Source: an uncultured Thiotrichales bacterium
Lineage (GTDB): Bacteria > Pseudomonadota > Gammaproteobacteria > CAZUMV01
DNA: 48,046 nucleotides
Assembly (NCBI GenBank): GCA_938041655.1
Contig: CALISW010000084.1
Location: forward strand, 1 to 48,046
Direction of reading: 5' to 3'
Of the stretch, positions 1-25,818 are shown in pieces. Every line of letters starts with the position of its first letter. The first letter of the stretch is position 1. The notes beneath the pieces are model-generated. The model did no database searches, was not told where the DNA came from, and saw only the letters and a program-made list of their open reading frames with translations. A program made the position numbers and the translations under genes.

Positions 1-510
1 CTCGCTTGCAGTTGCTGCGGTGTGTAACTGCATCGGAAATTCACTGGTATCACAACCCAGTTCTGACGCCAGATGTCGATACTCAGACCCGATCTGATCC
101 TGATCTCCACCCCGCTCAATTACTTCGGTCATCAAATACTGGCTAGCCTCTTTTGAACCCAAACCAACACGTCGTTTCGCACCGCTAAGCCAGGCAAGGA
201 AACCACTTTTCAATAGCCCCTGACAATCCAGCACCAGATCATATTCTTGTGCTCGAAGTTCGGACTTGAACATACGGATTTTTTTAAAGAGCTGAAAAAA
301 TTTAAAGCCTTTACGCAATTTATCCCAGCCGCTTTTGTCCCAAATGACCACTTCTTTGAGCTGAGGATGATCACGCAGCAAAGGCGCTGACTCTGGCTGC
401 ACCAGCCAATTAATCTCAGCATTAGGAAAGCGTTGTTGCAAGGCATCAACCAACGGGCTTGCCATGACAATATCGCCAATCGCACTCAAACGAATAATGA
501 GTATCTTCAT
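1..510 (-). CDS. Glycosyltransferase family 9 (LPS heptosyltransferase, WaaC/WaaF-like), runs off the window start
   Basis: Not in the ORF track. Manual translation from the ATG at 510 gives MKILIIRLSAIGDIVMASPLVDALQQRFPNAEINWLV...YDLVLDCQGLLKSG, the GT9 N-terminal signature. The start overlaps the stop of the upstream gene (ATGA, 507-510). Confidence 0.9.
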   Translation of the reverse strand, partial: MKILIIRLSAIGDIVMASPLVDALQQRFPNAEINWLVQPESAPLLRDHPQLKEVVIWDKSGWDKLRKGFKFFQLFKKIRMFKSELRAQEYDLVLDCQGLLKSGFLAWLSGAKRRVGLGSKEASQYLMTEVIERGGDQDQIGSEYRHLASELGCDTSEFPMQLHTAATASE

Positions 511-1823
511 CGCTGATCCGAAAAACGGTCACTTACCGTAATCAGCAACAACAGCAGTACCAGCGTGACCGGCAAATTTCTAAGAAACAACCATGAATTA
601 AATAGGCCAAACACCAGATTGAATATCACCAAACCCAACCCGGCCAAGCCGGCAAATACCTGGGTTTGTGTGTGACTGTCGAACAGTGTTCGCCAAAAAT
701 ACAGGCCCGGTAAAATGAATACTCCCAGCATCATTAATAGAAAGCCAAGTAACCCTGTAGTGGCAAGCACGTCAACGTAAATATTATGAAATATAGCAAA
801 AGAGGCTGTGGACAAAGACACTTCACCCTGCTGGATCAAGCGATCCAGATCTTCTTGACCATCTCCGATGCCGGTTCCGAAAACAGGTTGCTTATTCCAG
901 ATATGGTAGCCACCTTGCCATAAATTAAGACGGGCACTCACTGAATTATGCTGAACCTTACCTTCCGTATATTCCTGAACTTGGGCCGCTGTCGAGACAT
1001 ACCGCTGACTGAAATACTCGCTCTGACTAAAAACAGCTGTACCTATTAAAAAAGCACATAGCGAGATGATAATAAATTTATTATGCCCACCGGGTTCTTG
1101 CATGGATTTCAATATAGCCAGAATCAATATCATTAGAGCTGTACAAACTGCCGAAATAATCACGCCACGCGAACCAGCGGCGAGTAACGTGTAAACGCCC
1201 GCAACCACAACAATCAGCAATGGGATTCTGATCCGGTTATCAGAAACACTGACGAACAACGCCAGCACTACCAACCAGTACAAGCCAGCCAGATAAGCAA
1301 AAATATTGGGATTATAACCAGTAAACACCCCCGCTCTATACAAACCCTGAACCTGCAACTGATAAAAAGAAAAGACAAACATAAGGCTGGTAGAAAAAAC
1401 CACCGCAATGGCTATTATATTCGCACTCAGGCCAGCCTGAATTCTATGAAAGGCGAACAGAATTAAAATGACACCAGTGAGAAAGAAGGGATAGTAACTG
1501 TCAAAGCGCCAGCCAGCCGCCTGTAAATCAGCATTGTTAACCAGACTGCTGATCGAACTAAGAAAATACAACAAGAAACCAGCATACAAGAGACGTACCG
1601 CAGCACTGGGGAAAGTGACAGAACCTTTTGCTGACCAGTAACGCTTGCCAAAACTAATCATTGCCCATAACGAAATGATGGCTGCACCATTACTCGCCAC
1701 CTTGGAAAATAAAGGTGAGAACGCCAGAATCAGGCAGACACTCACGGCCAGAATCACCGCAATCTTGTCAGGACTCTCGCTCTGATCTGGGTATAATAAG
1801 TTTTGTAACAACGACGGGCGCAT
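507..1823 (-). CDS. O-antigen ligase family protein (WaaL-like)
   Basis: Many hydrophobic helices; GSRG, SARLNLW, PVFGTGIG and HNIY motifs of the Wzy_C/O-antigen ligase domain; LPS gene context. Confidence 0.85.
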   Translation of the reverse strand: MRPSLLQNLLYPDQSESPDKIAVILAVSVCLILAFSPLFSKVASNGAAIISLWAMISFGKRYWSAKGSVTFPSAAVRLLYAGFLLYFLSSISSLVNNADLQAAGWRFDSYYPFFLTGVILILFAFHRIQAGLSANIIAIAVVFSTSLMFVFSFYQLQVQGLYRAGVFTGYNPNIFAYLAGLYWLVVLALFVSVSDNRIRIPLLIVVVAGVYTLLAAGSRGVIISAVCTALMILILAILKSMQEPGGHNKFIIISLCAFLIGTAVFSQSEYFSQRYVSTAAQVQEYTEGKVQHNSVSARLNLWQGGYHIWNKQPVFGTGIGDGQEDLDRLIQQGEVSLSTASFAIFHNIYVDVLATTGLLGFLLMMLGVFILPGLYFWRTLFDSHTQTQVFAGLAGLGLVIFNLVFGLFNSWLFLRNLPVTLVLLLLLITVSDRFSDQR

Positions 1824-5706: not shown

Positions 5707-6630
5707 TTACTCTACCGGGGTCAGCCAGTGTTTATAATTATCGTCTTTGCCATGCACGATTTCAAAAAATTTCGACTGGATTTTTTCTGTAATCGGGCCA
5801 CGGCTACCAGCACCAATAGTTCGATTATCTACTTCGCGCACCGGCGTTACTTCTGCCGCAGTGCCGGTAAAAAACACTTCATCGCAAATATACACTTCAT
5901 CTCGAGTGATGCGTTTCTCGACAATTTCATAGCCCAGCTCTGATGCGATCGCGAATACACTACGACGCGTAATACCATTCAATGCAGAAGTTAAATCAGG
6001 TGTGTAAATAACACCATCTTTAATCAGGAATATATTCTCGCCACTGCCTTCGGCCACATAGCCCTCATTATCCAGCAACATGGCTTCATCATAGCCGTCT
6101 GCCACGGCTTCCTGTAAGGCCAGCATGGAATTAATGTAGTGACCATTCGCCTTGGCTTTGCACATGGAAATATTAACGTGGTGTCTGGTGTAAGACGAGG
6201 TCTTGATACGAATCCCTACTTCCATCCCTTCATCACCCAGATAACTACCCCATTCCCAGGCGGCAATACTCAGATGAACATTCAAATTATCGGCTCGTAT
6301 ACCCATTCCTTCTGAACCATAAAACGCCATCGGGCGTAAATACGCTGCCTCGAGGTTATTTAATCTGACGGCATCCAGCTGGGCTTGCATAACAATATCT
6401 TTATCCCAACGCATGGGCATTTGCATGATCTTGGCAGACTCAAACAAGCGATTAGTATGGGCTTCCAGTTGGAAAACAGCGGTGCCAGTCTCAGTCTTGT
6501 AGGCGCGCACCCCTTCGAATACGCCCATGCCGTAATGCAATGTATGGGTGAGCACATGCACATTGGCTTGACGCCAGGGTACAAATTCGCCATCCATCCA
6601 GATTACACCATCACGGTCAGCCATACTCAT
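5707..6630 (-). CDS. ilvE: Branched-chain amino acid aminotransferase
   Basis: LHYGMGVFEGVRAY, AKANGHY (PLP Lys), EGSGENIF, GTAAEVTP. The ATG at 6630 (MSMADRDG) has a GGAG RBS and is preferred over the TTG at 6648. Confidence 0.95.
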   Translation of the reverse strand: MSMADRDGVIWMDGEFVPWRQANVHVLTHTLHYGMGVFEGVRAYKTETGTAVFQLEAHTNRLFESAKIMQMPMRWDKDIVMQAQLDAVRLNNLEAAYLRPMAFYGSEGMGIRADNLNVHLSIAAWEWGSYLGDEGMEVGIRIKTSSYTRHHVNISMCKAKANGHYINSMLALQEAVADGYDEAMLLDNEGYVAEGSGENIFLIKDGVIYTPDLTSALNGITRRSVFAIASELGYEIVEKRITRDEVYICDEVFFTGTAAEVTPVREVDNRTIGAGSRGPITEKIQSKFFEIVHGKDDNYKHWLTPVE

Positions 6631-6727
6631 GGATACTGCTCCACTCAAATTTATTAAAGGCTATCTATTCTCTCGGAACACGGGCATGAGATCAAACAGT
6701 ATTGATCAATTAATTTCTCACGCAGAT

Positions 6728-7852
6728 CTAAAATTCGTTATCCGAGATTTGGGAAGTAAACTGGGTATCTACCAGAGTACCTGAAAGCGTTGTCTCGCCG
6801 GTTTCCGGACCACCGAATGCAGACTTGTTAAAGGCTTTCAAATAAGCCTCTTCAGAATCAATGGTACCTGCACGCAACAACTTCTTGAGTGTACCATCCA
6901 TGGTTTGCATGCCGGAAGCCTTGCCACTCTGCATGGCTGATTCCAGTTGATCACTCTTACCTTCACGAATCAGATTTGAGATGGCGGAGTTGTTGATCAT
7001 GATCTCAATCGCAGCTACCAGACCACTACCATCAGCACGTTTCACCAGTTGCTGAGAGATAACAGCTTTGATCGAAGTTGAAAGCATTGAGCGCACCTGC
7101 GCCTGCTTCATTGCTGGAAACGCATTGATAATACGATCAACTGTCGAAGAAGCGCGATTGGTATGTAAAGTACCCATGACCAGAATTCCAGTTTCAGCTG
7201 CGGTTACTGCCAAGCTGATAGTTTCCAGATCACGTAATTCGCCCACCAGAATTACATCCGGATCTTCACGCAAAGCCGAGCGCAAGGCCGCAGCAAAACT
7301 CTCGGTATGCTGACCCACTTCACGTTGACTGATTAAACACTTGCGACGTTGGTGTACAAATTCAATCGGATCTTCGATACATAAAATATGACCCTTGCGA
7401 TTTTTATTCACTTCATTAATCAAAGCCGCCATCGTGGTTGATTTACCGGAACCGGTTTTTCCAGTCACCAGTATCAAGCCCTGTTTGTGATTACACACCG
7501 ACTTCAACACTTTGGGCAAACCCAGCGCGTCTATACTCGCTGCTTTAGCCGGGATGGTTCTAAACACAGCACCCAGACCATTCAAGTGGCGAAACACATT
7601 GACCCTAAAACGCGACAAGCCTTCAATTTCGTAAGCAAAATCGACGCCGTCTTGTAAATCAAATTGTTGCTGAGCGAAATCGGACATAATCTCGTTCAAG
7701 TAGGCGGCCAGATCATCATTTTTGACTTTTTCGTCACTGATCGCTTCCAGCTCACCATAAATACGCATACGTGCCGGCTCACCTGACATCAAATGCAAAT
7801 CAGAACCATTTTTTTCAATCAGCTCACGCAGTATGTCATCTACTTTATTCAT
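6728..7852 (-). CDS. PilT/PilU-family ATPase (paralog 2)
   Basis: SDLHL, RFRVN, Walker A GKTGSGKST, EDPIEF, LREDPDVILVGELRD, GTLHT, AISNLIRE. Start is the ATG at 7852 (or 7858), overlapping the upstream stop. Confidence 0.92.
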   Translation of the reverse strand: MNKVDDILRELIEKNGSDLHLMSGEPARMRIYGELEAISDEKVKNDDLAAYLNEIMSDFAQQQFDLQDGVDFAYEIEGLSRFRVNVFRHLNGLGAVFRTIPAKAASIDALGLPKVLKSVCNHKQGLILVTGKTGSGKSTTMAALINEVNKNRKGHILCIEDPIEFVHQRRKCLISQREVGQHTESFAAALRSALREDPDVILVGELRDLETISLAVTAAETGILVMGTLHTNRASSTVDRIINAFPAMKQAQVRSMLSTSIKAVISQQLVKRADGSGLVAAIEIMINNSAISNLIREGKSDQLESAMQSGKASGMQTMDGTLKKLLRAGTIDSEEAYLKAFNKSAFGGPETGETTLSGTLVDTQFTSQISDNEF

Positions 7853-8933
7853 CGTCATACTCCGGTAACAAACTCGCATCAGTTATGTAACGCCTGAACT
7901 TCTTTGGCTCTAACGCATATTGGTAGGCATCATCCGGATCCACTTCTTTATTTTGTATTGCCTCCAATAGAGCCTGATCCATTAACTGCATACCTTTATC
8001 TTTGCCCGTCTGGATTTGCGAGGCAATCATGTGAATCTTGTCTTCCATAATCAGTTTACCAATCGCCTTGGTCATAACCATAGATTCAATCACCGCTTTA
8101 CGCCCCCTGCCCTCGGGCACTTTCACCAGAATCTGGGTCATGACACCCAGCAGGCTTTGCGCTAAAAACGTTTTACTCTGATCACGTTGCTCAATCGGCA
8201 CCGCATCAATAATTCGGTCGATACTTTTCACTGCAGTTGTGGTGTGCAATGTTCCAAGCACCAGATGGCCGGTCTCTGCAGCCGTCATTGCCATACCAAC
8301 TGATTCAGCGTCACGTAATTCACCCACCAAAATAACATCTGGGTCTTCACGCAGTGCGGCACGTAATCCCTGTGCAAAACCTTGCACATGCGTTCCAATT
8401 TCGCGCTGGATGACTTGTGAACGTTTACTCTTGTGAATAAATTCTATCGGATCTTCAAGACTGATGATGTTGTCGGTGCGGGTTTCATTAATGTGGTTGA
8501 TGATTGCTGCCAGCGTGGTGGACTTACCAGTACCGGTAGCACCAGTGACCAGAATCATGCCTTGCTGATGATCGATCAAGGAAGTGACTACATCGGGCAA
8601 ATTCAAACTCGCAATGGTAGGAACTTCTGGTGGGATATATCTAAACACCGCACCAGGACCGGTAGATTTTCTAAAGTAGTTGGCGCGGAAACGACCCACC
8701 TCTTCAGCACTGTAGGAAAAATCGAGGTCGTTGCCATCCTGATAGTATTTCTTTTGATTGGGAGTGAGAATTTCCAGCAAGTAAGAACTAAGCTCGCGTT
8801 CTTCCATTTCCCTGAATTTGATTGGCATCAAATCGCCACTCATGCGCAGCATCGGTGGCATACCAACTGCCAAATGCACATCAGAACAGCCTTGTTCTCT
8901 ACCCAGTTTTAAAAACGCGTCCAGTCGTGCCAT
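7845..8933 (-). CDS. PilT/PilU-family ATPase (paralog 1)
   Basis: SDVHL, RFRAN, Walker A GATGTGKST, EDPIEF, LREDPDVILVGELRD, His box TGHLVLGTLH. Confidence 0.92.
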   Translation of the reverse strand: MARLDAFLKLGREQGCSDVHLAVGMPPMLRMSGDLMPIKFREMEERELSSYLLEILTPNQKKYYQDGNDLDFSYSAEEVGRFRANYFRKSTGPGAVFRYIPPEVPTIASLNLPDVVTSLIDHQQGMILVTGATGTGKSTTLAAIINHINETRTDNIISLEDPIEFIHKSKRSQVIQREIGTHVQGFAQGLRAALREDPDVILVGELRDAESVGMAMTAAETGHLVLGTLHTTTAVKSIDRIIDAVPIEQRDQSKTFLAQSLLGVMTQILVKVPEGRGRKAVIESMVMTKAIGKLIMEDKIHMIASQIQTGKDKGMQLMDQALLEAIQNKEVDPDDAYQYALEPKKFRRYITDASLLPEYDDE

Positions 8934-9023
8934 GTATTCTCAACTTAAACAGGTAAACGACCTGTTTTATGATTATGCTGAAAATTATAGCACCGCGACC
9001 TGAAATGTCGCAGCAGAGAGTGG

Positions 9024-11453
9024 TTAAACTTCGTAATCGCGCAAGGTTTCTTCGAGCTCTTTCATACTTTGGAACCTGTCTTCAGGTTTGACTGCCATCA
9101 TTTTCATGACGATATTGCTCAATGGCAGTGGCACTTTGTCATTCACTTTGTGTACTGGATCGATTTTTCCATGCACGTGTTGGTATAAAACCGCCATATT
9201 GTCATCACCGGCAAAAGCGGTGATGCCGCTCAGCATTTCATAAAATATGATGCCCAAACTGTAGATATCTGTGCGGGGTCCCAGGTCTTTACCCAAAACT
9301 TGCTCAGGCGCCATATAACGAGGGGTACCGATCAAAATCCCCGTTTTGGTAAGTTTGGTATCACTACCGGTTTGTGCAGCGGAAATACCAAAATCGACGA
9401 TTTTCACCTGATCTTTATTATCGACCAGAATATTACCTGGCTTGATATCGCGGTGGATAACGCCCATTTCATGCGCCACTTCCAGTCCGGCAGCAACATC
9501 CGCCGTAATATTGATGGCGCGCTGAAAGTCCATCGGTTTATGCGCTTCCATATCAGCCGAGAGACTCAGCGACGGGAAGTACTCCATGGAAATCGCATAC
9601 AGGCTGCCAACCTGCAAGAAATCATAAATTCGAATAACATTTTTATGCTGGATTTTTCGTGCAAAGCGTAGTTCACGTATAAAGCGTTTGATCATTGATT
9701 CTTCGAGCGCCATCTTTTGATGCAACACTTTGAGAATCATCTGCTCATCAATCACTGTATCCTCTACCAGCAATACGGTACTGAACGCACCCTTACCGAT
9801 GCGTCGCACAAAGGTGTAACGATCTGACAGCTCATCACCAGGACTGAGACCTTTAATATTGACCTCACCCTCATTATTAATAGTAAGCGTCTCACCTGGT
9901 TCAGGCTTCGGCTTCGGTGTTGGTTGACCCGTTTTTCGTTTTGATTGTTTCGCCCTACCCGGCTCCTGGATAACCTGACTTAACTCATTTACGCTTTCTT
10001 CGAAGATATCACTAATGTCGACACTCATGCGCTTCTCAATGCGCTCCAGACTTTCGGCAGCTGCCTCTTGCACCTCTTCTACCGAAAGCTTCGCTCGTTT
10101 CTTAATCGCGGTTTTAATATCATCAGCGCGTACACTATCGACTAAGGCCGACAAGGTATACATTGCCTCAATAATAATATTGGGGTCTTCACTTTCCAGC
10201 ATTTGCTGTACTTCAGGCACCGACTTGGAATCGGCTAAGGTACTTAAACCACGCAACACCACGGGTGCTGCCTGGGTATCGCGCTTCATCAAATTAATCA
10301 GACCAGGGACGGCTTTGGCGTTGCCAATATTCGCCAGCGCATCAATCGCACGTTCGCGCACCCACCAGTCAGAATCATCCAGTGCTTTAATCAGCTCGTC
10401 GAGCGCTGCTTCACTTTTAGTCGAATTAAGAATTTCAATCGCGGCACGACGTACATATTCATCTTTGCTGCGAATCAATTTAACCACGGCGTTAACCACA
10501 CGCGGTCCACCAATCTGCGCCAGCGCATCGGCTGCTCGGGCACGCACCCACCAATCGGTATCTTTGAGCGCACCGAGCAAATCTTCGATCGCATTGGGGT
10601 ACTGCATGCCATTGAGGACTTCAACAGCACCACGCCTGACGTATTCAGACTCGTCTTTAAGCAGGTCGATTAAGTATTTTACTGTTTTAGGGTCATTGCG
10701 CTTGATTACGGCATCAACGGCGCGAGTCTGGATATTGTAATCATCATCCTTGATCAAGGTACACAAGACGCCAATGTCTACCTTGGTATTGATTTTTTCC
10801 AATGCCTCAAGCGCCTCAAAACGTATGGTTTTACTCTTATCTGTTAAGCGGCCCAACAAAGCATTACGTGATTGCGGTGTATTGAAATGCGCCAGCAACT
10901 TAACCACGCCTAAACGAGTATTCGGGTCTTTAGCCGAGACACGACTCACCAGTTCAGGCACGATTGCCTCATCCTGGCAATCTTCCAACAAACGAAACAA
11001 CGCCAGTCGCTCACCGGGCTGCAAGGTACCGGTTTTACGAATCAGTGCAACCGGGTTAACCCGGTTTTTATGCGCGCGAAGAATTTTTAAGAGCGCTGTC
11101 TTGGCGGTTTCGCTGTTATCGAACAAGGTCAATAAAGCAGTTGGATCATATCCCGTGTTTTTTGAGAGTACGTCAACCGTGGTAGCAACAACTTTCGGGT
11201 GCGCCTCGGAGTGCAAACCGCTAAAAAAAGCCGGCAGTGTGGCAGTATCAACCATCTGATCGAGAATCTGATGGATACGTCGGTCGACGCTATCTTCAGC
11301 AGAAGGAATTTTTTCGATGAGTTTGGGAATCGTAGCCGCTGGCTCGGCACGTAATTTACGAATACTGGAGCTGAACCCTGGATCATTTACATCAGGCGCA
11401 GACAAGCACTTATCCAAATGCTTGTCTATCCTTAGAGTTCCGAGTAATCCCAC
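9024..11453 (-). CDS. HEAT-repeat protein fused to a C-terminal Hanks-type Ser/Thr protein kinase
   Basis: About 31-aa HEAT-like repeats (DxxxxVRxxAxxAL). Kinase motifs IGKGAFSTV, ILK, alphaC Glu (RFIRE), HRDIKPGN, DFG, GTPRYMAPE, DIYSLG. No TM segment or signal peptide seen. GTG start. Confidence 0.92.
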   Translation of the reverse strand: MGLLGTLRIDKHLDKCLSAPDVNDPGFSSSIRKLRAEPAATIPKLIEKIPSAEDSVDRRIHQILDQMVDTATLPAFFSGLHSEAHPKVVATTVDVLSKNTGYDPTALLTLFDNSETAKTALLKILRAHKNRVNPVALIRKTGTLQPGERLALFRLLEDCQDEAIVPELVSRVSAKDPNTRLGVVKLLAHFNTPQSRNALLGRLTDKSKTIRFEALEALEKINTKVDIGVLCTLIKDDDYNIQTRAVDAVIKRNDPKTVKYLIDLLKDESEYVRRGAVEVLNGMQYPNAIEDLLGALKDTDWWVRARAADALAQIGGPRVVNAVVKLIRSKDEYVRRAAIEILNSTKSEAALDELIKALDDSDWWVRERAIDALANIGNAKAVPGLINLMKRDTQAAPVVLRGLSTLADSKSVPEVQQMLESEDPNIIIEAMYTLSALVDSVRADDIKTAIKKRAKLSVEEVQEAAAESLERIEKRMSVDISDIFEESVNELSQVIQEPGRAKQSKRKTGQPTPKPKPEPGETLTINNEGEVNIKGLSPGDELSDRYTFVRRIGKGAFSTVLLVEDTVIDEQMILKVLHQKMALEESMIKRFIRELRFARKIQHKNVIRIYDFLQVGSLYAISMEYFPSLSLSADMEAHKPMDFQRAINITADVAAGLEVAHEMGVIHRDIKPGNILVDNKDQVKIVDFGISAAQTGSDTKLTKTGILIGTPRYMAPEQVLGKDLGPRTDIYSLGIIFYEMLSGITAFAGDDNMAVLYQHVHGKIDPVHKVNDKVPLPLSNIVMKMMAVKPEDRFQSMKELEETLRDYEV

Positions 11454-11499
11454 AGTATTATTCCATTAATTCAAATGCAACACAGCTATTCCTTGCGCG

Positions 11500-11967
11500 C
11501 TATTGAGTGGTCACCTTGTTAATAAAATCTTTATTAGCCAGTACGTAATTATTTTCTGTATCAGCGATGGTGATAAACAATTTATCTTCGCGATTCAGAT
11601 AGTCAAACAATCGAGCGCTTTCTTCCGGCAGCAAAGCACTGACATCGCCATGTACTTCACGCTTGTCATTCATCGTAATACAAACACTTGCCGTAAAATT
11701 CTCGACGGCTTGTGGCTGTTTTAGTTCACCGCGTTGATAAATCAACCTCAAAATACTGTCCTTGCCTATAAAACAAATCCCTGCTTGATCTTCATCAAAT
11801 ACGATGAACCGCCTTCGGTCATTGACCAAATCAGCGGGAGTTTCCGGATAGCCGGTTTCGTCTTTCGCAAAATGCAGAAAAACGTTGCCCTTGAGGGTTT
11901 TTTCGTCACGCATCTCCAGCACGACGGGAAAACACTTTTTTTGAACAATAAACCGAGTGTCAACCAT
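11500..11967 (-). CDS. Hypothetical protein made of two internal ~65-aa repeats (resembles DUF6812-type proteins)
   Basis: ATG with GGGG RBS; fills the gap co-directionally. The halves align on V.x.M.D....G.V, D..N....FI and KD.I. The DUF assignment is from memory only. Confidence 0.75.
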   Translation of the reverse strand: MVDTRFIVQKKCFPVVLEMRDEKTLKGNVFLHFAKDETGYPETPADLVNDRRRFIVFDEDQAGICFIGKDSILRLIYQRGELKQPQAVENFTASVCITMNDKREVHGDVSALLPEESARLFDYLNREDKLFITIADTENNYVLANKDFINKVTTQ

Positions 11968-12049: not shown

Positions 12050-14851
12050 TCAGCTTATACGCTCGTTTAGCTTCCAGGCAGCCGTTGCCGGTGCTTTGGC
12101 ACCCAGAATCATCTCACAAGTCTCTTCTCTACTCAGATTTTGTAACAATCTTGGTTTTGAGATAACGTGGCCCTGCGCAAAATCCACATCCAGACGGGCC
12201 AACTCGTCCCTGACTTCTTCAGATTCTACATATTCTGCAATAGTCTGCAGACTCATAGTATGACCGACATCATTAATTGCGCTGATCATGGCCCGGTCGA
12301 CCTTGTCTTCAAGCATATCCAGAACAAAATTGCCGTCTATTTTGAGAAAATCGACTGGCAAGGTTTTGAGATAGGCGAATGAACTCAAGCCACTACCAAA
12401 ATCATCCAGCGCAAAACGGCAGCCCAGCTGACGCAACTCACGCATAAACACCGCTGCCGAGGCTAAATTCGAGATTGCTGCAGTCTCTGTTATTTCAAAA
12501 CAAATCGAAGAGGCTGGCACCTGGTACTTCTCAAATAATGACTTGATGTAATCCAGTGTGGTGGTCGAATTGATGGTCAAACCGGATAAATTAATCGCCA
12601 TGACGAGTTCAGTTGAATAGCCTTCAGATTCGTACCACTGGAATGCTGAATTCACCACCCAACGATCTATCTCAGGCATCAAACTGTAGCGTTCGGCCGA
12701 AGGCAAAAAGGCGCCTGGCAAAATAGAATTGCCATTTTCATCGCGCATGCGCAATAAAATCTCGATGTGTCTTTGCGCTATTGCTTCTACCCGGCTGACC
12801 GGCACGATATCTTGGTAATACAACTCGAATCTTTGTTGCTCCAAAGCCTCTGTAATTCTTGAAGCCCAATCCATCTCGGCACGTCGGCGGTGTAAATCTT
12901 TATCGCTTTCCAGATAGGTGTGAATGCGATTACGCCCTAAATCTTTCGCCGCGTAACATGCGATGTCTGCCGCACTCAAAAGTGACTGCACGCCCTCGCT
13001 ATGCTTGGTGACCGGCACCAGTCCAATACTGGTACCCACATCAAATGATTTCTCGCCCCAGACAAAACGAAATTCTTTCGATGTCATGCGTAATTTGTCA
13101 GCAATCTCTTCGCCTTTTTTAATCGAACATCCTGGTAGTAAAATACCGAACTCATCACCACCTAATCGCGCCAGCACATCACTACCACGCAAGGTCTCTC
13201 TAAATAATTGGGCTATCTGTTTTAACAACTCATCACCGGCGCTATGACCACAGGTATCATTCACCAGCTTGAACTGATCCAGATCAATATACATGAGCAC
13301 ATGTTCTTCTTCGGTCTGCTCGGTACTGTTGAGCAAGTTTTGTAATCGACTTTCAAACTCGCGTCGATTCATCAGACTGGTGAGCGCATCGTGCCGCGCC
13401 TGATACTCGAGTTCTTCCTGCAGCGCACGTTTTTCGGTGACGTCATGAAATACAATGACATAACCAATAACCTTGTCGGCTAAATCCCGAATCGGAGAAA
13501 CGTTGTAGTTGATGACCGCGATACTGCCATCCAGAGAATAAAGCTCACCCAGCAATTGGCGTGACTCATGGTTACTACCAGACTCACTGAAAAAATTATT
13601 GATCGGGTCATCCAGCCACTGCCCTAGAACTTCCGAATGCACTTTGAATACATCGGCCAGAGGTTGATAGCGCGCCTCGGTGTGCGACCAGCCGGTCAGT
13701 TGTTCTGCCACCTTGTTTAGAAAATCTATTCTGCCGTTGGTATTGGTCGTGACTACCGCGTCACCGATCGACTGCAGCGTCACCATGGCACGTTCGCGTT
13801 CTTTATCCAACGCTTCATTTATCGCATACATCGAAGACATGTCCAGCAAATAGCCATCCAGATGCTTGAGCTTCTTCTTTTTATCAAACACCGGCATGCT
13901 GTAGTTACTGACCCAGCAATAACTGCCGTCTGCTTGCTTAAGACGATAGTCAACACGCACGTCGGTCTGGTTTTTTTCCATGTCGAGCATAACTTTTTCG
14001 ACTTGTCCGAGATCGGTCGGATGAATTAACGAGGCAAACTCAATTCCGGCTGCCACCATTTTCTGGCTGTCATAACCAAACTGTCGAATATTGTCCGAGA
14101 CCCACTCCAGCAACCAGTTGCCACCAGCAACACAACGGTACATCACCACCGGTCCTTGCCTGAACAAACGTCGATCACGATTAAGTTCTGTTTCAGATTC
14201 CAGTCGCTGTTTGATCTGGGCTTCCAAATCGGAGTGATTACGCTCCAGCTCATTGGTGAGCTGCTTGTTATGACGTCGCAGTACATAATCATTATTGAAC
14301 AAACTACTTACCTGATTCACCAGGTAGAGCAACAAAGCACTAAAGCAGGTCAGCAATACCGCCACCCACTTGAAACCACCAGGCGCATCGACCAAACACC
14401 AAAGTATAACCGGCAGCATCATTGGCAACAGGAACAACCAGAAACCCAATGGTCTCGGTGCATGAAGAAACATCGCACCAAGGGCAACACCAGACAAAAA
14501 CAAGATGACACTAAAGTGTAGTGTCTGCGTGTTTTCAGGTGGCATAAAGAAAATCAGCATGCCCCAGATACAGCCAGCAATAAACGTACTAAAGTTGAAG
14601 AGTTGTATATTAACGGGGCGATAGGCAACAGGCGTTAGCGCCACCAGCTTGGTAATCCAGTAATACCGACCAGCATTGATTAGCAAGTGCGCCGCCAGCC
14701 AGTAATGCAACCACGCATCTTTGGTTTGAAACCAGAGAAATAAATATATAGCCACGCCAAAACACAATCCAGTCAACTGAATATTGGCGGCATCTTTTGA
14801 AACCTGCCTGTGATTATCTAGCGCGGAGGCTGCTGAGCCATCACCGAACAA
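12050..14851 (-). CDS. Membrane-bound PAS-PAS-GGDEF-EAL diguanylate cyclase/phosphodiesterase
   Basis: N-terminal TM helices, coiled coil, two PAS domains, DLDQFK, RGSD I-site, GGDEF, EILLR, EITET, DDFGSG, KID, AEYVE. The TTG start is uncertain. Confidence 0.92.
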   Translation of the reverse strand: MFGDGSAASALDNHRQVSKDAANIQLTGLCFGVAIYLFLWFQTKDAWLHYWLAAHLLINAGRYYWITKLVALTPVAYRPVNIQLFNFSTFIAGCIWGMLIFFMPPENTQTLHFSVILFLSGVALGAMFLHAPRPLGFWLFLLPMMLPVILWCLVDAPGGFKWVAVLLTCFSALLLYLVNQVSSLFNNDYVLRRHNKQLTNELERNHSDLEAQIKQRLESETELNRDRRLFRQGPVVMYRCVAGGNWLLEWVSDNIRQFGYDSQKMVAAGIEFASLIHPTDLGQVEKVMLDMEKNQTDVRVDYRLKQADGSYCWVSNYSMPVFDKKKKLKHLDGYLLDMSSMYAINEALDKERERAMVTLQSIGDAVVTTNTNGRIDFLNKVAEQLTGWSHTEARYQPLADVFKVHSEVLGQWLDDPINNFFSESGSNHESRQLLGELYSLDGSIAVINYNVSPIRDLADKVIGYVIVFHDVTEKRALQEELEYQARHDALTSLMNRREFESRLQNLLNSTEQTEEEHVLMYIDLDQFKLVNDTCGHSAGDELLKQIAQLFRETLRGSDVLARLGGDEFGILLPGCSIKKGEEIADKLRMTSKEFRFVWGEKSFDVGTSIGLVPVTKHSEGVQSLLSAADIACYAAKDLGRNRIHTYLESDKDLHRRRAEMDWASRITEALEQQRFELYYQDIVPVSRVEAIAQRHIEILLRMRDENGNSILPGAFLPSAERYSLMPEIDRWVVNSAFQWYESEGYSTELVMAINLSGLTINSTTTLDYIKSLFEKYQVPASSICFEITETAAISNLASAAVFMRELRQLGCRFALDDFGSGLSSFAYLKTLPVDFLKIDGNFVLDMLEDKVDRAMISAINDVGHTMSLQTIAEYVESEEVRDELARLDVDFAQGHVISKPRLLQNLSREETCEMILGAKAPATAAWKLNERIS

Positions 14852-15051: not shown

Positions 15052-16743
<1,692 letters not shown>

Positions 16744-17037
16744 TTAACCGACAACCGCAATGATGTCTTCTTCTTTCATGACCAGCAGTTCTTCACCATC
16801 AATTTTGACCTCAGTACCTGCGTACTGGCCAAACAGAATCTGATCACCCACTTTTACGTCGAGTTCATAGACAGTGCCATTCTCAACTTTGCCGTTACCA
16901 ATCGCGAGCACTTCGCCGCTGTTTGGTTTTTCTGTTGCACTACCAGGCAGCACAATTCCACCTGCACTGACAGTTTCTTCTTCTAAACGACGCACAATTA
17001 CGCGGTCGTGTAAGGGACGTATTTTTAACTTAGCCAT
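16744..17037 (-). CDS. groS: Co-chaperonin GroES
   Basis: [19 protein letters not shown]; directly upstream of groEL. Confidence 0.99.
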
Positions 17038-18954: not shown

Positions 18955-20091
18955 GTGAGTATGAATATACAGTCTGCATTTAATAAGTTCACTGACTTAC
19001 CTCTTCCTGCCAGCATGGGTAGAAAGCTTGAGGCGTATGCGATGCATGACGTCATCACCGTTGGCAACGAAAAACAAAAAACATATCAAGGTACTGTTAA
19101 CTTTTGCGCCTGGAGTTGCATTTTCTGTATATGCATATCCACTTACTTCGGCTTCAACAATAATCTGGTTGGCTCATTGTTTCCTTTGCCATTTTTCATG
19201 ATCTCTGTTTGGGGTTATTACCTATTTAAACGCCTCAGCCAGAATCTGGTATTTGACTACATTAATGGTATCTACCACCACGGACAAATAAGCAATCACC
19301 ATCAAAAAAAACCAAAAGGACAAGGTGATATTCGAGAAATACAATGCCTGATAATTTCCAGAAAAAGAAACTCAGGTCACTATGACGAAGACACGAACAC
19401 CAGTAGCGAAGACTATGATTCCTACCGTTTGGAAATGGAGCTTCTAAATGGAACTAAAAAGGTCATTATGCATAGAGCGCGTTCAGGAAAACCTGTGTAT
19501 GCAACAGCAGCGCATCTAGCACAACGTATTGGGATTCCAGCCTATGATGCCGATGGGTTACTTAATACCTCAGATCACGATTTAGTTAAACAAACAACCA
19601 CCAAATCATCTCGCATTAATATTGACGATCAGGAAAAATACAAAGACAAAAAAAATTGGTTCGCAACTATCCTGATAGCCACGTTACTGGCTGGCGGATG
19701 GCATATAAGCTACAACAAAAATGAAACCAATGATGAAGTCAAACCTGAAACTGTAGTCAAAGCACCTCATGTGAGCGAAACCCTGCATCCACAAGTGTTG
19801 GAAAATCAGATCAAGAAATTTTATGCCACACGCCTGGGTCGCAATTACGTGATGACGTCAATTGATAAAATTGCCATCTTACCAATCGATGAGAAGTATT
19901 TTGAAATGCATGTGCGCTATCAGTTCGCACCGTCCAGACCAGGTGTTGGTTATGTTGGATCAGATCAACGGACATTCAAGGTGCGCATTAATAGTTATGA
20001 TGCCAATTCAGCCAGTATTTCAATATTGTCTATGGGCCAACATAATTCAGCAAATTTCGCTGTTGCAGAACTTAAGAAAGTGCTTAAATAA
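18955..20091 (+). CDS. Hypothetical membrane protein
   Basis: 378-aa ORF filling the gap, with two N-terminal hydrophobic segments and one central one. No recognised family. Start is GTG 18955 or ATG 18961. Confidence 0.7.
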   Translation: MSMNIQSAFNKFTDLPLPASMGRKLEAYAMHDVITVGNEKQKTYQGTVNFCAWSCIFCICISTYFGFNNNLVGSLFPLPFFMISVWGYYLFKRLSQNLVFDYINGIYHHGQISNHHQKKPKGQGDIREIQCLIISRKRNSGHYDEDTNTSSEDYDSYRLEMELLNGTKKVIMHRARSGKPVYATAAHLAQRIGIPAYDADGLLNTSDHDLVKQTTTKSSRINIDDQEKYKDKKNWFATILIATLLAGGWHISYNKNETNDEVKPETVVKAPHVSETLHPQVLENQIKKFYATRLGRNYVMTSIDKIAILPIDEKYFEMHVRYQFAPSRPGVGYVGSDQRTFKVRINSYDANSASISILSMGQHNSANFAVAELKKVLK

Positions 20092-23902: not shown

Positions 23903-24286
23903 TTATAACTGCTCAAATTCCTTACGCAGACTGTATTTCGAAGAAGTCACTACCCTTTCAAGGTCTGCAATGCGGCGATTGATTCGCTCATAGCGCGTAC
24001 TCAGGTTATCACTCATCTCCGAAGGTGAACGCCGATAACTGCGCCAAAAACGCTCTTCAACCGCACCGTCATAAAGCTGCTCGGGACGCGGATCCAGAAT
24101 CACCCAAAGTACGACGTAGGCAATCAGGAACGGGAAACCACCGAAAATAGTTGTTACTACCATTCCAAATCTGATCCAGCCAACACTGATGCCGAAAAAA
24201 TCACTCAAGCCGGCACATACGCCTGTTAACTTTCCTTTTTCACGGTTCTTGTACAACTTGTTAGGATTATTTTCATACATTGTCAT
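23903..24286 (-). CDS. pspC: Phage shock protein C
   Basis: GKLTGVCAGLSDFFG, AYVVLWVILD, C-terminal LERVVTSSKYSLRKEFEQL. Confidence 0.93.
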   Translation of the reverse strand: MTMYENNPNKLYKNREKGKLTGVCAGLSDFFGISVGWIRFGMVVTTIFGGFPFLIAYVVLWVILDPRPEQLYDGAVEERFWRSYRRSPSEMSDNLSTRYERINRRIADLERVVTSSKYSLRKEFEQL

Positions 24287-24503
24287 TACTCCTATCTACG
24301 TTATTACTTTCTAAAATTGATTCCAGATTATCGAGCCGTTCTTCCATTACTGTTGCCAGCTTCCATAGCTGTTCCATATTTTCTCGATCTTCCGGCGTCG
24401 CACTTTTCATCTTTTTTGCCTGGGTGGCGTAATGCATAAAGACCCATAGTGGCGCCACAAAAATCATAAACAGGATAAATGGCGCTATAAATATTTCACT
24501 CAT
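24273..24503 (-). CDS. pspB: Phage shock protein B
   Basis: LFMIFVAPLWVFMHY, MEERLDNLESIL. Confidence 0.93.
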   Translation of the reverse strand: MSEIFIAPFILFMIFVAPLWVFMHYATQAKKMKSATPEDRENMEQLWKLATVMEERLDNLESILESNNVDRSNDNV

Positions 24504-24748
24504 AATCTATCTCCCGCTGGCTTTTCCAGTTCACTTAATTCCTGGCGCAACTCATAACTATTACTGGATACAATTTCTTCTACTACACGCATCCGCTGCT
24601 CCATATTTTCCAACTGCCTCAGAACCTCTTCTAACTTGCCATCACTGAGCGTGCCCTGGTTTTTGGATCGGTACTTCAGATACTTTTCAAGCAATCCAGC
24701 CGCCAGGCCTAACGCTACAATGGCTACTACCATTTCAAAAACTTCCAT
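24500..24748 (-). CDS. Psp-associated small membrane protein (one TM plus coiled coil)
   Basis: GGGAG RBS; ATGA overlap with pspB; N-terminal TM; tail resembles the PspC C-terminus. Confidence 0.8.
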   Translation of the reverse strand: MEVFEMVVAIVALGLAAGLLEKYLKYRSKNQGTLSDGKLEEVLRQLENMEQRMRVVEEIVSSNSYELRQELSELEKPAGDRL

Positions 24749-24776
24749 AACTTATCTCCCCGTAAGTCAGTATTCG

Positions 24777-25433
24777 TTATTCGCTGTCCGCTTTAAGATC
24801 GGCCAGCTCGGCATCAATCTGCTCTGACACTTCAAGTTCGGCAAACTGATCCTGCAAGCTCGGGTTGCGGCCCATTTCATAGGCATCTACCTGACCTTCC
24901 ATTTTGTCGATCTTGTTTTCCATCCGATCAAAACTGACCATGGCGTCATCCAATCGACTGTCATAGATGCGTTGCTTGGTCTTGAGACGATTTCCAACGG
25001 CACTGTTCTTCATCAGAATTGTCTTTTGACGCGCTCGTGCATCGTCCAGCTTTTCCTGCAAACGACCAATGTCATCATTCAACTTAAACAGCTGCTCTTC
25101 CAGAATGTCCAGATCCTGTGTGAGATGCTCAACCGTTTTAGCCAGGTTATGCTTCTCAACCAAGGCGGCTCTGGCTAAATCTTCACGATCTTTGCTTAAA
25201 GCCAGCTTCGCTTTGTCTTCCCAGTCTTCTACTTCAGCGGTCATTCTGTCAATACGGCGTTGCTGCTTTTTCTTGTCAGCGATCGCTCGTGCTGCCTCTG
25301 ATCGAACTTCAACCAAAGTATCTTCCATTTCCTGAACTACCAGCCGAATTATCTTTTCGGGGTTCTCTGCCTTGTCGAGCATCGCGTTCAAGTTCGAATT
25401 TACAATATCATTTAGTCTGCTAAAAATTCCCAT
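24777..25433 (-). CDS. pspA: Phage shock protein A
   Basis: MGIFSRLNDIVNSNLNAMLDKAENPEKIIRLVVQEMEDTLVEVRS; long coiled coil. Start is 25433 or 25439. Confidence 0.96.
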   Translation of the reverse strand: MGIFSRLNDIVNSNLNAMLDKAENPEKIIRLVVQEMEDTLVEVRSEAARAIADKKKQQRRIDRMTAEVEDWEDKAKLALSKDREDLARAALVEKHNLAKTVEHLTQDLDILEEQLFKLNDDIGRLQEKLDDARARQKTILMKNSAVGNRLKTKQRIYDSRLDDAMVSFDRMENKIDKMEGQVDAYEMGRNPSLQDQFAELEVSEQIDAELADLKADSE

Positions 25434-25473
25434 GATCATTTCCTCTGTTGCTATTAAATAGTCTAACGGTTAA

Positions 25474-25755: not shown

Positions 25756-25803
25756 CTTGTCACTCCGTTTTGTTGTACATATTGCTTACTTACCTAATGC
25801 AAT

Positions 25804-25818
25804 ACAATTTGCGTGCCA
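25804..25818 (-). promoter_or_regulatory. sigma54 (-24/-12) promoter of the psp operon
   Basis: Minus strand TGGCACGCAAATTGT, with GT in place of GC at -12 as I recall for the E. coli pspA promoter; divergent from pspF. Confidence 0.88.

What the first reader, a model, noticed from the sequence alone, without database searches (positions are those of the whole stretch)
6728..11967. Candidate undescribed system: tandem-repeat small protein + HEAT-repeat Ser/Thr kinase + two orphan PilT ATPases
Seen: four co-oriented genes with gaps of 46 bp and 90 bp and an 8-bp overlap. They encode a 155-aa two-repeat protein, an 809-aa soluble HEAT-kinase with intact catalytic motifs, and two PilT-family ATPases. 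No pilin, PilC platform or secretin gene is in the window. Known: canonical gammaproteobacterial pilT-pilU normally sits next to yggS/proC, which are absent here, and PilT is a hexameric retraction motor. Inference: a phosphorylation-controlled, possibly hetero-hexameric motor module in which the HEAT solenoid scaffolds the ATPases. It could be an alternative pilus-retraction switch or a pilus-independent remodelling machine. I know of no characterised operon with this composition.
Basis: partly seen in the sequence, partly recalled or inferred. Interest (0 to 1): 0.85.

Follow-up and report, generated by a model that had tools for sequence, protein, structure and literature searches.

The report
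Kinase-coupled pair of extra PilT motors
A marine gammaproteobacterium carries, besides its normal pilus-retraction motors, a conserved gene set of a HEAT-repeat protein kinase, two extra PilT-type motor ATPases and a small two-barrel protein; the set is inherited together in many related bacteria and has not been studied.

Summary
Four co-oriented minus-strand genes encode a 155-aa two-repeat protein, an 809-aa soluble HEAT + Hanks Ser/Thr kinase, and two PilT-family ATPases (T1 362 aa, T2 374 aa, 8-bp overlap).

The same genome keeps a canonical pilT-pilU locus beside yggS-proC on another contig, so these ATPases are extra copies.

The association is strongly conserved. In a sample of 300 genomes of the class, the kinase orthologue and the T1-type ATPase occur in the same 40 genomes and in no other. 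The small protein occurs in 33 of those 40, always beside the kinase. Kinase-T1-T2 are collinear in 36 of 42 and 67 of 80 fetched loci; most exceptions are contig ends.

T1 and T2 are two separate old clades on the PilT side of the tree, not PilU. Both keep the ATPase motifs, and the kinase keeps its catalytic motifs. The small protein is a divergent tandem DUF6812 protein with two Sm-like barrels. Flanking genes are housekeeping, which argues against a defence island.

A complex prediction gives weak support for the HEAT solenoid binding T1.

Most likely this is a kinase-coupled accessory retraction-motor pair of the type IVa pilus. Phosphorylation, hetero-hexamer formation and the pilus link are inferred, not shown. 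My full-text searches found no description.

The parts
11500..11967 (-). Small protein (155 aa): a divergent tandem-DUF6812 protein with two small Sm-like beta-barrels. It is an accessory first gene of the module.
   Evidence: ORF. Pfam DUF6812 scores 22.4 bits, below the 27.1 cut-off. A profile of 40 orthologues finds 1349 representative proteins. I scanned 10 of the distant ones and all 10 hit DUF6812, 5 over the cut-off. AF2 model pLDDT 90.2, pTM 0.84. Fold matches are weak: YaeO Z 4.5, Hfq/LSm Z 3.3-3.8. It lies directly upstream of the kinase in 33 of 40 carrier genomes, one copy each.
10023..11453 (-). HEAT solenoid of the kinase (residues 1-477, about 30 helices). The central repeats (about 241-390) carry repeated DWWVR.RA.DAL..IGG motifs.
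   Evidence: Pfam HEAT_2 2.7e-58. Model. The central repeats are as conserved as the kinase core, both in loci with and without the small gene. Weak support for binding T1.
9024..10022 (-). Disordered linker (residues 478-527), Hanks-type Ser/Thr kinase domain (about 540-809) and stop codon.
   Evidence: Pkinase 1.2e-52. GkGAFG, the ILK lysine, HRDlKPaN, DFG and YMAPEQ are conserved in 111 orthologues. Linker and activation loop (691-706) have pLDDT below 50.
8934..9023 (-). 90-bp spacer between kinase and T1 with a 9-bp-stem hairpin (9015-8991) followed by CTATAATTTT. It could be a partial terminator, a processing site or an internal promoter.
   Evidence: Consensus scan and sequence. These are pattern matches only.
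7845..8933 (-). T1: a specialised PilT-clade ATPase (362 aa) with a conserved C-terminal tail.
   Evidence: TIGR01420 414.8 bits. Forms its own clade with 100% SH-aLRT. Walker A (GsTGTGKS), Asp box, Walker B and His box are conserved in 102 orthologues. It has 32 clade-specific conserved positions, and the tail carries a near-invariant Thr. Best solved relative is P. aeruginosa PilT 3jvu, E 1.6e-92.
6728..7852 (-). T2: a PilT-like ATPase (374 aa from ATG 7852; the longest ORF starts at 7879).
   Evidence: TIGR01420 461 bits. Forms its own clade with 98% SH-aLRT. Motifs are conserved in 96 orthologues, but the first His of the His box is Ile. 3jvu E 1e-102. Start and overlap.
12050..14851 (-). 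Upstream neighbour: a membrane-anchored PAS-PAS-GGDEF-EAL protein (933 aa). It is linked to the module only in the window's own family.
   Evidence: Pfam. GGDEF, EIL and DDFGSG motifs are present. Found upstream in G001, G002 and G003 but in none of the other 39 loci of that set at that position.

Best explanation
This is a conserved, chromosomally stable module of a subset of environmental Gammaproteobacteria. Titles of the related records name Thiotrichales-labelled MAGs, Thioalkalivibrio, Ectothiorhodospira, Woeseiaceae, Steroidobacteraceae and Chromatiales.

The core is three genes. The first is a soluble Hanks-type Ser/Thr kinase with a roughly 480-residue HEAT solenoid at its N-terminus. 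The other two are catalytically competent PilT-clade hexameric ATPases: T1, which is specialised, and T2, which is PilT-like. A tandem-DUF6812 two-barrel protein is a frequent fourth member, and an FHA protein a less frequent fifth.

Most likely mechanism, with each step marked:
- T1 and T2 are a second, accessory pair of retraction-type motors for the cell's type IVa pilus machine. This is inferred from family membership and from the presence of PilB, PilQ, PilT and PilU in the genome.
- The kinase is held on the motor through its conserved central HEAT repeats, which bind T1. This has weak computational support.
- From there the kinase phosphorylates the motor or a neighbouring machine or adaptor protein and so switches the pair on or off in response to a signal. 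This is inferred.
- The small protein is an adaptor or regulator. It is probably not the conserved phospho-acceptor, since it has no invariant Ser or Thr.
For: 1. Phyletic pattern. In 300 sampled genomes of the class, the HEAT-kinase orthologue (E<1e-70) and the T1-type ATPase (E<=1e-110) occur in the same 40 genomes and in none of the other 260. The small protein occurs in 33 of the 300, all among the 40, once per genome and always beside the kinase.

2. Gene order. Kinase-T1-T2 are collinear in 36 of 42 loci and 67 of 80 loci; counts. The two sets share some genomes. The median T1-T2 gap is 13 bp (93 of 103 are <=30 bp) and the median kinase-T1 gap is 18 bp.

3. Extra copies. Six PilT-family genes pass the cut-off in this genome. 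The canonical pilT-pilU plus a third copy sits next to yggS-proC-yggT on C103.

4. Tree of 30 PilT-family proteins from 6 genomes. T1 (100) and T2 (98) are separate clades that group with canonical PilT (100), apart from the PilU-like clade (100).

5. Motifs. ATPase motifs are conserved in 102 T1 and 96 T2 sequences. Kinase motifs are conserved in 111 sequences.

6. HEAT conservation. The central HEAT repeats are as conserved as the kinase core, with or without the small gene. This argues for a universal partner.

7. Complex prediction. The HEAT part (residues 181-470) was scored against T1 plus the small protein. The verdict was weak support. The score was 0.55 (runs 0.55, 0.51, 0.65) and the best of 3 controls was 0.00. 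One control replaced T1 with an unrelated protein while keeping the small protein, and it also scored 0.00. The mark was reached by 58 of 80 solved complexes and 2 of 110 mismatched pairs. At 0.60 or under, it was reached by only 7 of those 80 and by both mismatches that passed. The runs agree in at least 61% of contacts and the partner's pLDDT is at least 78. I used my own alignments and three chains, which differs from the calibration.

8. Pilus machinery in the genome: PilB and PilQ.

9. An FHA gene directly follows T2 in 15 loci.

10. Precedents. Passages of PMC13584747 report tandem PilT paralogues MXAN_6705/6706 in M. xanthus, with a partial S-motility defect when MXAN_6706 is deleted. 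Passages of PMC7690835 report that the Sm-fold protein Hfq binds the pilus ATPase PilB1 in Synechocystis.
Against: - Nothing here shows phosphorylation, a substrate, ATPase activity, oligomer composition or any pilus phenotype.
- The pilus link rests on homology. PilQ is found in 38 of the 40 carrier genomes but also in 208 of the 260 others, so co-occurrence does not discriminate. One 98%-complete carrier, G048, had no PilQ match at E<=1e-60.
- The C-terminal AIRNLIRE-type helix of PilT (motif recalled from memory; the PilT consensus is seen) is degenerate in T1 and only partly kept in T2. T2 also has Ile in place of the first His-box histidine.
- The complex score is in the weak band, no contacts were returned, and the job design differs from the calibration.
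- The module can be split. In G197 the kinase lies on one contig and T1-T2 on another.
- No PP2C or FHA gene is in this window. The genome's one PP2C match is on contig C27.
- The small protein has no invariant Ser/Thr and its partner is unknown.
Confidence: 0.5

Rival explanations
1. The parts are the same but the signal runs the other way. The T1/T2 motor, docked on the pilus machine, reports its nucleotide or load state to the HEAT-kinase bound to it. The kinase then phosphorylates downstream targets that FHA proteins read. The module would be a surface or mechano-sensing output of the pilus, not a switch of retraction.
For: The kinase is soluble, has no sensor domain other than the HEAT solenoid, and its most conserved non-catalytic surface is predicted, weakly, to bind T1. 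An FHA protein is encoded after T2 in 15 loci. The small protein and T1/T2 have few clade-specific conserved Ser/Thr: one in the T1 tail and one in T2.
Against: No target is known and no transcription factor or FHA gene is in this window. The data cannot tell the direction of signalling. The T1 tail Thr could equally be the acceptor in the best explanation.
Confidence: 0.2
2. A pilus-independent machine. T1 and T2 are PilT-fold hexameric ATPases recruited to another task under kinase control, such as remodelling a protein complex or powering a different envelope system. DotB, a PilT-like ATPase, works in the Dot/Icm secretion system in this way.
For: There is no pilus gene in the window. T1 has 32 clade-specific conserved positions, a degenerate AIRNLIRE-type helix and an extra conserved tail. 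One near-complete carrier lacked a PilQ match. Flanking genes are unrelated housekeeping genes.
Against: Both proteins exceed the PilT/PilU family cut-off by about 100-140 bits and score far below the DotB, TraJ and GspE cut-offs. They branch with canonical PilT, closer than PilU does. 38 of 40 carriers have PilQ. No alternative platform, secretin or substrate gene is conserved beside the module.
Confidence: 0.2
3. An anti-phage defence system built on a Ser/Thr kinase (as in PD-T4-6 or Stk2-type systems) with ATPase effectors.
For: The kinase domain matches many PADLOC PD-T4-6 and mad6 models (E down to 2.7e-81) and the NCBIfam MADS6 kinase.
Against: These are matches of the generic kinase domain only (residues about 540-807), and all NCBIfam scores lie far below the cut-offs. 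The ATPases and the small protein match no defence model beyond P-loop noise. The module sits between housekeeping genes: apbC/dcd and metG in many lineages, and groEL, leu and a class IV aminotransferase here. It is single-copy, T1 keeps 54-80% identity across families, and I saw no mobile-element genes.
Confidence: 0.05
4. Chance adjacency of unrelated genes, with no functional unit.
For: Nothing supports this beyond the absence of experiments.
Against: Identical phyletic pattern of kinase and T1 in 40 of 300 genomes. Conserved order and very short gaps in more than 100 loci.
Confidence: 0.02

Closest known systems
PilT-PilU tandem retraction ATPases of type IVa pili (P. aeruginosa, V. cholerae)
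   Same: Two adjacent, tightly coupled genes for PilT-family hexameric ATPases with intact Walker A/B, Asp and His boxes. The best solved relative of both is P. aeruginosa PilT 3jvu. One member (T2) is more PilT-like and the other (T1) more diverged. This echoes a primary motor plus a dependent accessory motor (abstract of PMC6762196 as shown in the listing).
   Different: T1 and T2 are clades of their own, and neither belongs to the PilU-like clade. They are not beside yggS/proC; the genome's canonical pair is. They are invariably co-inherited with a dedicated HEAT-kinase. The AIRNLIRE-type helix is degenerate in T1.
Tandem PilT paralogues MXAN_6705/MXAN_6706 of Myxococcus xanthus
   Same: An adjacent pair of extra PilT paralogues, conserved across a large group and present beside canonical PilT and PilU. 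Deleting one gives a partial pilus-motility defect (PMC13584747, passages read).
   Different: The passages I read mention no kinase partner.
Hanks-type Ser/Thr kinases with repeat-domain sensors (PknB/Stk1 family)
   Same: The catalytic domain has all motifs and an activation loop with conserved Thr.
   Different: It has no membrane segment and no PASTA domains, and the NF033483 score is 280 bits against a cut-off of 450. Instead it has an N-terminal HEAT solenoid joined by a disordered linker. It is genetically tied to PilT-type ATPases.
Hfq bound to PilB1 in Synechocystis; PilZ-FimX-PilB in Xanthomonas (the latter recalled)
   Same: A small beta-barrel protein working with a pilus ATPase. 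One barrel of the small protein superposes weakly on Synechocystis Hfq 3hfo (Foldseek TMt 0.65 over 63 columns, E 0.23; Z 3.8). A GGDEF-EAL protein is encoded just upstream in this family.
   Different: No sequence relation to Hfq or PilZ: there was no Pfam hit to either at E<=0.01. The fold matches are in the range of common small barrels. No binding to an ATPase has been shown. The GGDEF-EAL neighbour is confined to one family.
DUF6812 (PF20660) proteins
   Same: The small protein's wider family of about 150-aa tandem-domain proteins reaches the DUF6812 cut-off in 5 of the 10 distant relatives I scanned. The nearest Atlas cluster is named DUF6812.
   Different: The window protein itself scores below the cut-off (22.4 against 27.1 bits). 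Only 28 of the 1349 representative proteins reach E<=1e-30; these probably include the kinase-linked orthologues, but their gene context was not examined. The one distant subgroup I examined lies next to inorganic pyrophosphatase and malic enzyme, without kinase or PilT.

Membership tests
PilT/PilU family type IVa pilus ATPase (TIGR01420) | Whole-protein score over the curated cut-off (319.1 bits) | tested here: met
   T1 414.8 bits and T2 461 bits. The whole-genome search agrees.
PilT/PilU family type IVa pilus ATPase (TIGR01420) | Walker A, Asp box, Walker B and His box intact | tested here: met
   Conserved in 102 T1 and 96 T2 orthologues. T2 has Ile for the first His-box histidine and keeps the second.
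Canonical PilT (retraction motor) | Membership of the canonical PilT clade, and a locus beside yggS/proC | tested here: not met
   T1 and T2 form their own clades. The canonical pilT is C103:10774-11811, next to yggS-proC-yggT.
Canonical PilT (retraction motor) | C-terminal AIRNLIRE helix (motif recalled from memory) | tested here: inconclusive
   The PilT consensus here is AIRnLIrE. T2 reads Av.NliR (window: AISNLIRE). T1 reads AIa.Li (window: AIGKLIME).
PilU | Membership of the PilU clade | tested here: not met
   The PilU-like clade (100% support, 12 rows) excludes T1 and T2.
Pilus retraction function | Powers pilus retraction in vivo and binds PilC/PilM | not testable with these tools
   Needs genetics and imaging.
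Hanks-type Ser/Thr protein kinase (PF00069) | Score over the cut-off, and the catalytic Lys, HRD, DFG and APE motifs | tested here: met
   179.4 bits against 31.7. Motifs conserved in 111 orthologues.
Stk1/PknB PASTA kinase (NF033483) | Curated cut-off and PASTA domains | tested here: not met
   280.2 bits against 450. Only the kinase domain (residues 540-806) matches.
Defence kinases (PADLOC PD-T4-6, mad6; NCBIfam MADS6, PglW) | Full-length match, and a defence-system gene context | tested here: not met
   Kinase-domain-only matches. NCBIfam scores are far below the cut-offs. Flanking genes are housekeeping genes.
HEAT repeat proteins (PF13646) | Repeated HEAT_2 matches, and an alpha-solenoid model | tested here: met
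   194.7 bits in 6 stretches. About 30 helices at residues 1-477.
DUF6812 (PF20660) | Score over the gathering cut-off (27.1 bits) | tested here: inconclusive
   The window protein scores 22.4 bits. Of the 10 distant profile relatives I scanned, 5 pass. The nearest Atlas cluster is DUF6812.
Sm/Hfq-like small beta-barrel fold | Structural superposition well above background | tested here: inconclusive
   Best Z 4.5 (YaeO, rmsd 3.1, 61 aligned). Hfq/LSm Z 3.3-3.8. No chain reached Z>=5 among the 48161 compared. Foldseek found nothing at E<=0.001.
PilZ c-di-GMP adaptor | PilZ domain match | tested here: not met
   No PilZ family at E<=0.01 for the small protein.

The most novel reading that the evidence does not exclude
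The module is a new signalling device. A soluble HEAT-kinase rides on a dedicated, possibly heteromeric T1/T2 PilT-type motor and converts the motor's mechanical or nucleotide state into Ser/Thr phosphorylation, or the reverse. The tandem-DUF6812 protein and, in some lineages, an FHA protein act as adaptors. It would be the first dedicated eukaryotic-like kinase circuit wired directly to a pilus-type motor, or a PilT-fold machine that no longer serves a pilus at all.
Probability: 0.2. Interest if true: 0.85.

Novelty: new variant of a known kind. Interest (0 to 1): 0.62.

Why it matters
Why many bacteria carry several PilT paralogues, and how retraction is switched, are open questions in pilus biology. 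Here two paralogue clades are tied by an exact phyletic match to one dedicated kinase. That gives a concrete, testable hypothesis for their control, and it gives a first functional context to a DUF6812 subfamily. The carriers are abundant sediment, soil and marine sulfur- and carbon-cycling Gammaproteobacteria, among them Woeseiaceae, Steroidobacteraceae and Ectothiorhodospiraceae. Some are cultivable, so genetics is feasible. If the kinase docks on the motor through its HEAT repeats, that would be a new way of coupling Hanks-type signalling to a molecular machine.

Tried and rejected
- Defence-system reading: rejected on context and on domain-only matches.
- GGDEF-EAL/PilZ-type control as a general feature: rejected. 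The GGDEF-EAL neighbour is confined to the window's own family and the small protein has no PilZ match.
- Small protein as the conserved kinase substrate: unlikely, since 40 orthologues share no invariant Ser/Thr.
- Small protein as the universal partner of the HEAT repeats: unlikely. The repeats are equally conserved in lineages without it.
- Pilus dependence from co-occurrence with PilQ: not informative. It gave 38 of 40 carriers against 208 of 260 other genomes.
- Fused (Rosetta-stone) forms of the small protein: none among the 8000 longer candidates scored. The tool itself says this is weak evidence.
- Context of distant DUF6812 relatives: one subgroup only, 7 metagenome loci, with no kinase or PilT. 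Other subgroups were not examined.
- Phylum-wide sample: no HEAT-kinase orthologue at E<=1e-40 in 350 other genomes. This means not found in those searched, not that it is absent.
- Expression: no RNA holder was listed for the stretch.
- Fold searches of the small protein gave only weak small-barrel matches. The kinase model was not sent to a fold search.
- The class IV aminotransferase downstream and the FHA protein on C42 were considered as module members. The aminotransferase is linked only in the window's lineage and in G197. The C42 protein shares only the FHA domain.
- Supplementary files of papers were closed. The supplements of PMC13584747 (its alignment and trees of PilT paralogues) could bear on whether MXAN_6705/6706 are relatives of T1/T2.

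Full report
OBSERVATION

The four genes exist as described, all on the minus strand:
- a 155-aa protein at 11500-11967;
- an 809-aa protein at 9024-11453;
- a 362-aa protein at 7845-8933 (T1);
- a fourth gene whose longest ORF is 6728-7879 (T2).

T2 most plausibly starts at ATG 7852. That ATG has GGAG 9 nt upstream and overlaps the T1 stop codon by 8 bp, and an orthologue starts at the same residue.

Pfam and NCBIfam give six HEAT_2 stretches and a Pkinase domain (residues 546-798) for the large protein. They place both ATPases above the curated PilT/PilU cut-off (414.8 and 461 bits against 319.1). The small protein's only hit is a sub-threshold one to DUF6812 (22.4 against 27.1 bits).

Upstream lies a membrane-anchored PAS-PAS-GGDEF-EAL protein with GGDEF, EIL and DDFGSG motifs. 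Downstream lies a class IV aminotransferase.

The rest of the window is housekeeping: groEL, fxsA, leuABCD, the psp genes, dsbD, accBC, prmA, dusB, purH, purD, rho, trxA, a DEAD-box helicase and polysaccharide genes. I saw no pilin, PilC or secretin among the 42 ORFs scanned (the four genes plus 38 others).

THE GENOME HAS ITS NORMAL MOTORS ELSEWHERE

The window is contig C84 of a 2.93-Mb assembly of 258 contigs, 84.6% complete. Six genes pass the PilT/PilU cut-off: the two in the window, three in tandem on C103, and one on C27.

The first C103 gene is divergent from yggS, proC and yggT, which is the canonical pilT locus. PilB and PilQ are present too.

THE ASSOCIATION IS CONSERVED AND THE PHYLETIC PATTERN IS EXACT

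Orthologous clusters were first seen in two genomes of the same genus, one of the same family and one of another family.

I then searched a sample of 300 genomes of the class:
- The HEAT part of the kinase (530 aa) finds an orthologue of about 800 aa (E<1e-70) in 40 genomes.
- T1 finds a T1-type protein (E<=1e-110, 54-80% identity) in 40 genomes. They are the same 40.
- A profile of the small protein finds it in 33 genomes. All 33 are among the 40, with one copy each (split in G298), always directly upstream of the kinase.

One of the 40, G298, is marked unpublished. Without it the counts are 39 and 32.

In the fetched neighbourhoods, kinase-T1-T2 are collinear in 36 of 42 loci. The six others are:
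- three contig ends;
- two 27%-identity paralogous HEAT-kinases of G155 with no PilT gene beside them;
- G197, where the kinase is on one contig and T1-T2 on another.

Among the best 80, 67 have all three genes and 6 end after T1. The remaining 7 show the kinase alone: 6 are contig ends and 1 is G197 again. The two locus sets share genomes and are not independent.

Gaps are short. The median T1-T2 gap is 13 bp (93 of 103 are <=30 bp) and the median kinase-T1 gap is 18 bp.

Record titles place the carriers in Gammaproteobacteria: Thiotrichales-labelled MAGs (closest, about 55% identity), Thioalkalivibrio, Ectothiorhodospira, Woeseiaceae, Steroidobacteraceae and Chromatiales. A phylum-wide sample of 350 other genomes had none.

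CONTEXT ARGUES FOR A CORE-GENOME FUNCTION

In many Woeseiaceae- and Steroidobacteraceae-type loci the kinase is the first gene. It is divergent from apbC/mrp and dcd, and metG follows T2. The GGDEF-EAL and aminotransferase neighbours are confined to the window's own lineage. I saw no mobile or defence genes.

A 223-aa FHA protein directly follows T2 in 15 loci. This window has none. The genome's five FHA proteins and its single PP2C match lie elsewhere.

WHAT THE PROTEINS ARE

ATPases. A tree of 30 PilT-family proteins from six genomes gives four clades: canonical PilT, T2 (98% SH-aLRT), T1 (100%) and a PilU-like clade (100%). T1 and T2 group with PilT (100%).

- Both keep Walker A, the Asp box, Walker B and the His box across 102 and 96 orthologues.
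- T2 replaces the first His-box histidine by Ile and keeps most of the AIRNLIRE-type helix. That motif name is recalled from memory.
- T1 has a degenerate version of that helix and 32 clade-specific conserved positions, against 11 in T2.
- T1 also has a conserved C-terminal tail with a near-invariant Thr.
- The best solved relative of both is P. aeruginosa PilT.

Kinase. It keeps the glycine loop, the catalytic Lys, HRD, DFG and APE motifs, and an activation loop with Thr residues, in 111 orthologues.

- Its model (pLDDT 83.7) is a solenoid of about 30 helices (residues 1-477), a disordered linker (478-527) and the kinase domain. It has no membrane segment.
- The central HEAT repeats carry repeated, almost invariant DWWVR.RA.DAL..IGG motifs.
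- They are as conserved as the catalytic core, whether or not the small gene is present. This points to a partner common to all carriers.

Small protein. It models confidently (pLDDT 90.2, pTM 0.84) as two five-strand small barrels.

- Fold searches give only weak Sm/Hfq/LSm, YaeO and tandem-Tudor matches, with Z at most 4.5.
- Its profile finds 1349 representative proteins, 28 of them at E<=1e-30.
- I scanned 10 distant relatives and 5 of them pass the DUF6812 cut-off.
- The nearest Atlas clusters are DUF6812 or unnamed, from Gemmatimonadota, Pseudomonadota and Myxococcota.
- One distant subgroup lies beside inorganic pyrophosphatase and malic enzyme, with no kinase or PilT. The link to the module is therefore specific to this subfamily.
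- Its 40 orthologues share no invariant Ser/Thr.

BINDING TEST

I sent the HEAT part (residues 181-470) as the scored partner, together with T1 and the small protein. The verdict was weak support.

- The score was 0.55 (runs 0.55, 0.51, 0.65). The best of three controls was 0.00.
- One control replaced T1 with an unrelated protein and kept the small protein. It also scored 0.00.
- The mark was reached by 58 of 80 solved complexes and 2 of 110 mismatched pairs. At 0.60 or under, it was reached by only 7 of those 80 and by both mismatches that passed.
- The runs agree in at least 61% of contacts and the partner's pLDDT is at least 78.
- My own alignments and the three-chain design differ from the calibration, and no contacts were returned.

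I read this as a modest rise in the odds that the solenoid docks on T1, and as saying nothing about the small protein.

MECHANISM

Shown: a co-inherited, co-ordered unit of a competent-looking kinase and two competent-looking PilT-clade ATPases, additional to the canonical motors.

Inferred:
- T1/T2 act on the type IVa pilus machine as an accessory motor pair.
- The kinase sits on T1 through its HEAT repeats.
- Phosphorylation couples a signal to motor activity. It could equally run the other way and report motor state to downstream targets.
- The small protein is an adaptor.

The pilus link rests on homology only. PilQ co-occurrence does not discriminate: 38 of 40 carriers against 208 of 260 other genomes.

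Two precedents support the plausibility. An adjacent pair of extra PilT paralogues in M. xanthus shows a partial motility defect for one member (PMC13584747, passages). The Sm-fold protein Hfq binds the pilus ATPase PilB1 in Synechocystis (PMC7690835, passages).

COMPARISON AND NOVELTY

The parts belong to known families. The closest known system is the PilT-PilU tandem. The composition is the new element: a dedicated HEAT-kinase, two private PilT clades and a DUF6812 protein.

Full-text searches found no paper describing it:
- 'DUF6812' gave 0 papers;
- 'PilT' with 'HEAT repeat' and 'threonine kinase' gave 0 papers;
- 'PilT paralog' with 'kinase' listed 5 of 6 papers, none on this;
- 'PilT' with 'Hanks-type' and 'type IV pil' gave 2 unrelated papers;
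- 'PilT-like ATPase', 'protein kinase', 'gene neighborhood' gave nothing relevant among the 12 listed.

Subscription journals and supplements were not searchable.

I rate it a new variant of a known kind, of moderate to high interest. The conservation result is solid. The mechanism is open and testable in cultivable carriers.

LIMITS

Kinship among genomes inflates the counts, so they describe distribution and are not a statistical test.

Noticed in passing
own genome contig C27 (L196): 5975-7174, 9344-11929, 16051-16776; C27:25492-25701: A second Ser/Thr-signalling neighbourhood. It holds an 861-aa kinase fused to a caspase (Peptidase_C14) domain, the genome's only PP2C match, an FHA protein, and a PilU-like ATPase next to inorganic pyrophosphatase.
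   Followed up: partly
own genome contig C103 (L197): 8279-11811: Three PilT-family genes in tandem (pilT, pilU and a third PilU-like copy) beside yggS-proC-yggT. G153 and G026 show the same triple arrangement.
   Followed up: partly
L239-L245 (metagenome contigs): A distant tandem-DUF6812 subgroup sits divergently next to inorganic pyrophosphatase and upstream of a malic enzyme/PTA fusion. In the window's own genome a PilU-like gene is also next to ppa. This may be coincidence.
   Followed up: no
L090, L091 (G155:C28 and C31): Two paralogous HEAT-kinases of about 800 aa (about 27% identity to the window's) with no PilT genes beside them. A sister family with another partner?
   Followed up: no
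window 8991-9015 (-): A hairpin of 9 pairs followed by CTATAATTTT in the 90-bp kinase-T1 spacer. It matches both the terminator-like and the -10-like patterns.
   Followed up: no
T1 C-terminus, window about 7848-7910 (-): A conserved tail beyond the PilT core, consensus F.RFVTDP.LLP with a near-invariant Thr (window: FRRYITDASLLP). It is a candidate docking or phospho-acceptor site.
   Followed up: partly
L066, L069-L072, L075, L076, L078-L081, L083-L085, L155: A 223-aa FHA-domain protein directly downstream of T2 on the same strand in 15 loci. L078 has two copies.
   Followed up: partly
L065 (G122), G117:C9:13393-13854: T2 is split into two ORFs in G122. The small gene carries an in-frame stop in G122 (TAG) and in G117 (TAA). 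These are either decay or assembly errors.
   Followed up: no
window 18955-20091 (+): A 378-aa ORF between leuB and leuA with no Pfam match at E<=1e-5.
   Followed up: no
window 507-1823 (-) and 45457-46992 (+): Two Wzy_C (O-antigen ligase-like) proteins amid glycosyltransferase, sulfotransferase and polysaccharide genes at both ends of the window. G+C falls to 0.36-0.40 after 44 kb.
   Followed up: no
window 23903-26986: A phage-shock cluster: pspC, pspA and a divergent sigma-54 activator (pspF-like).
   Followed up: no
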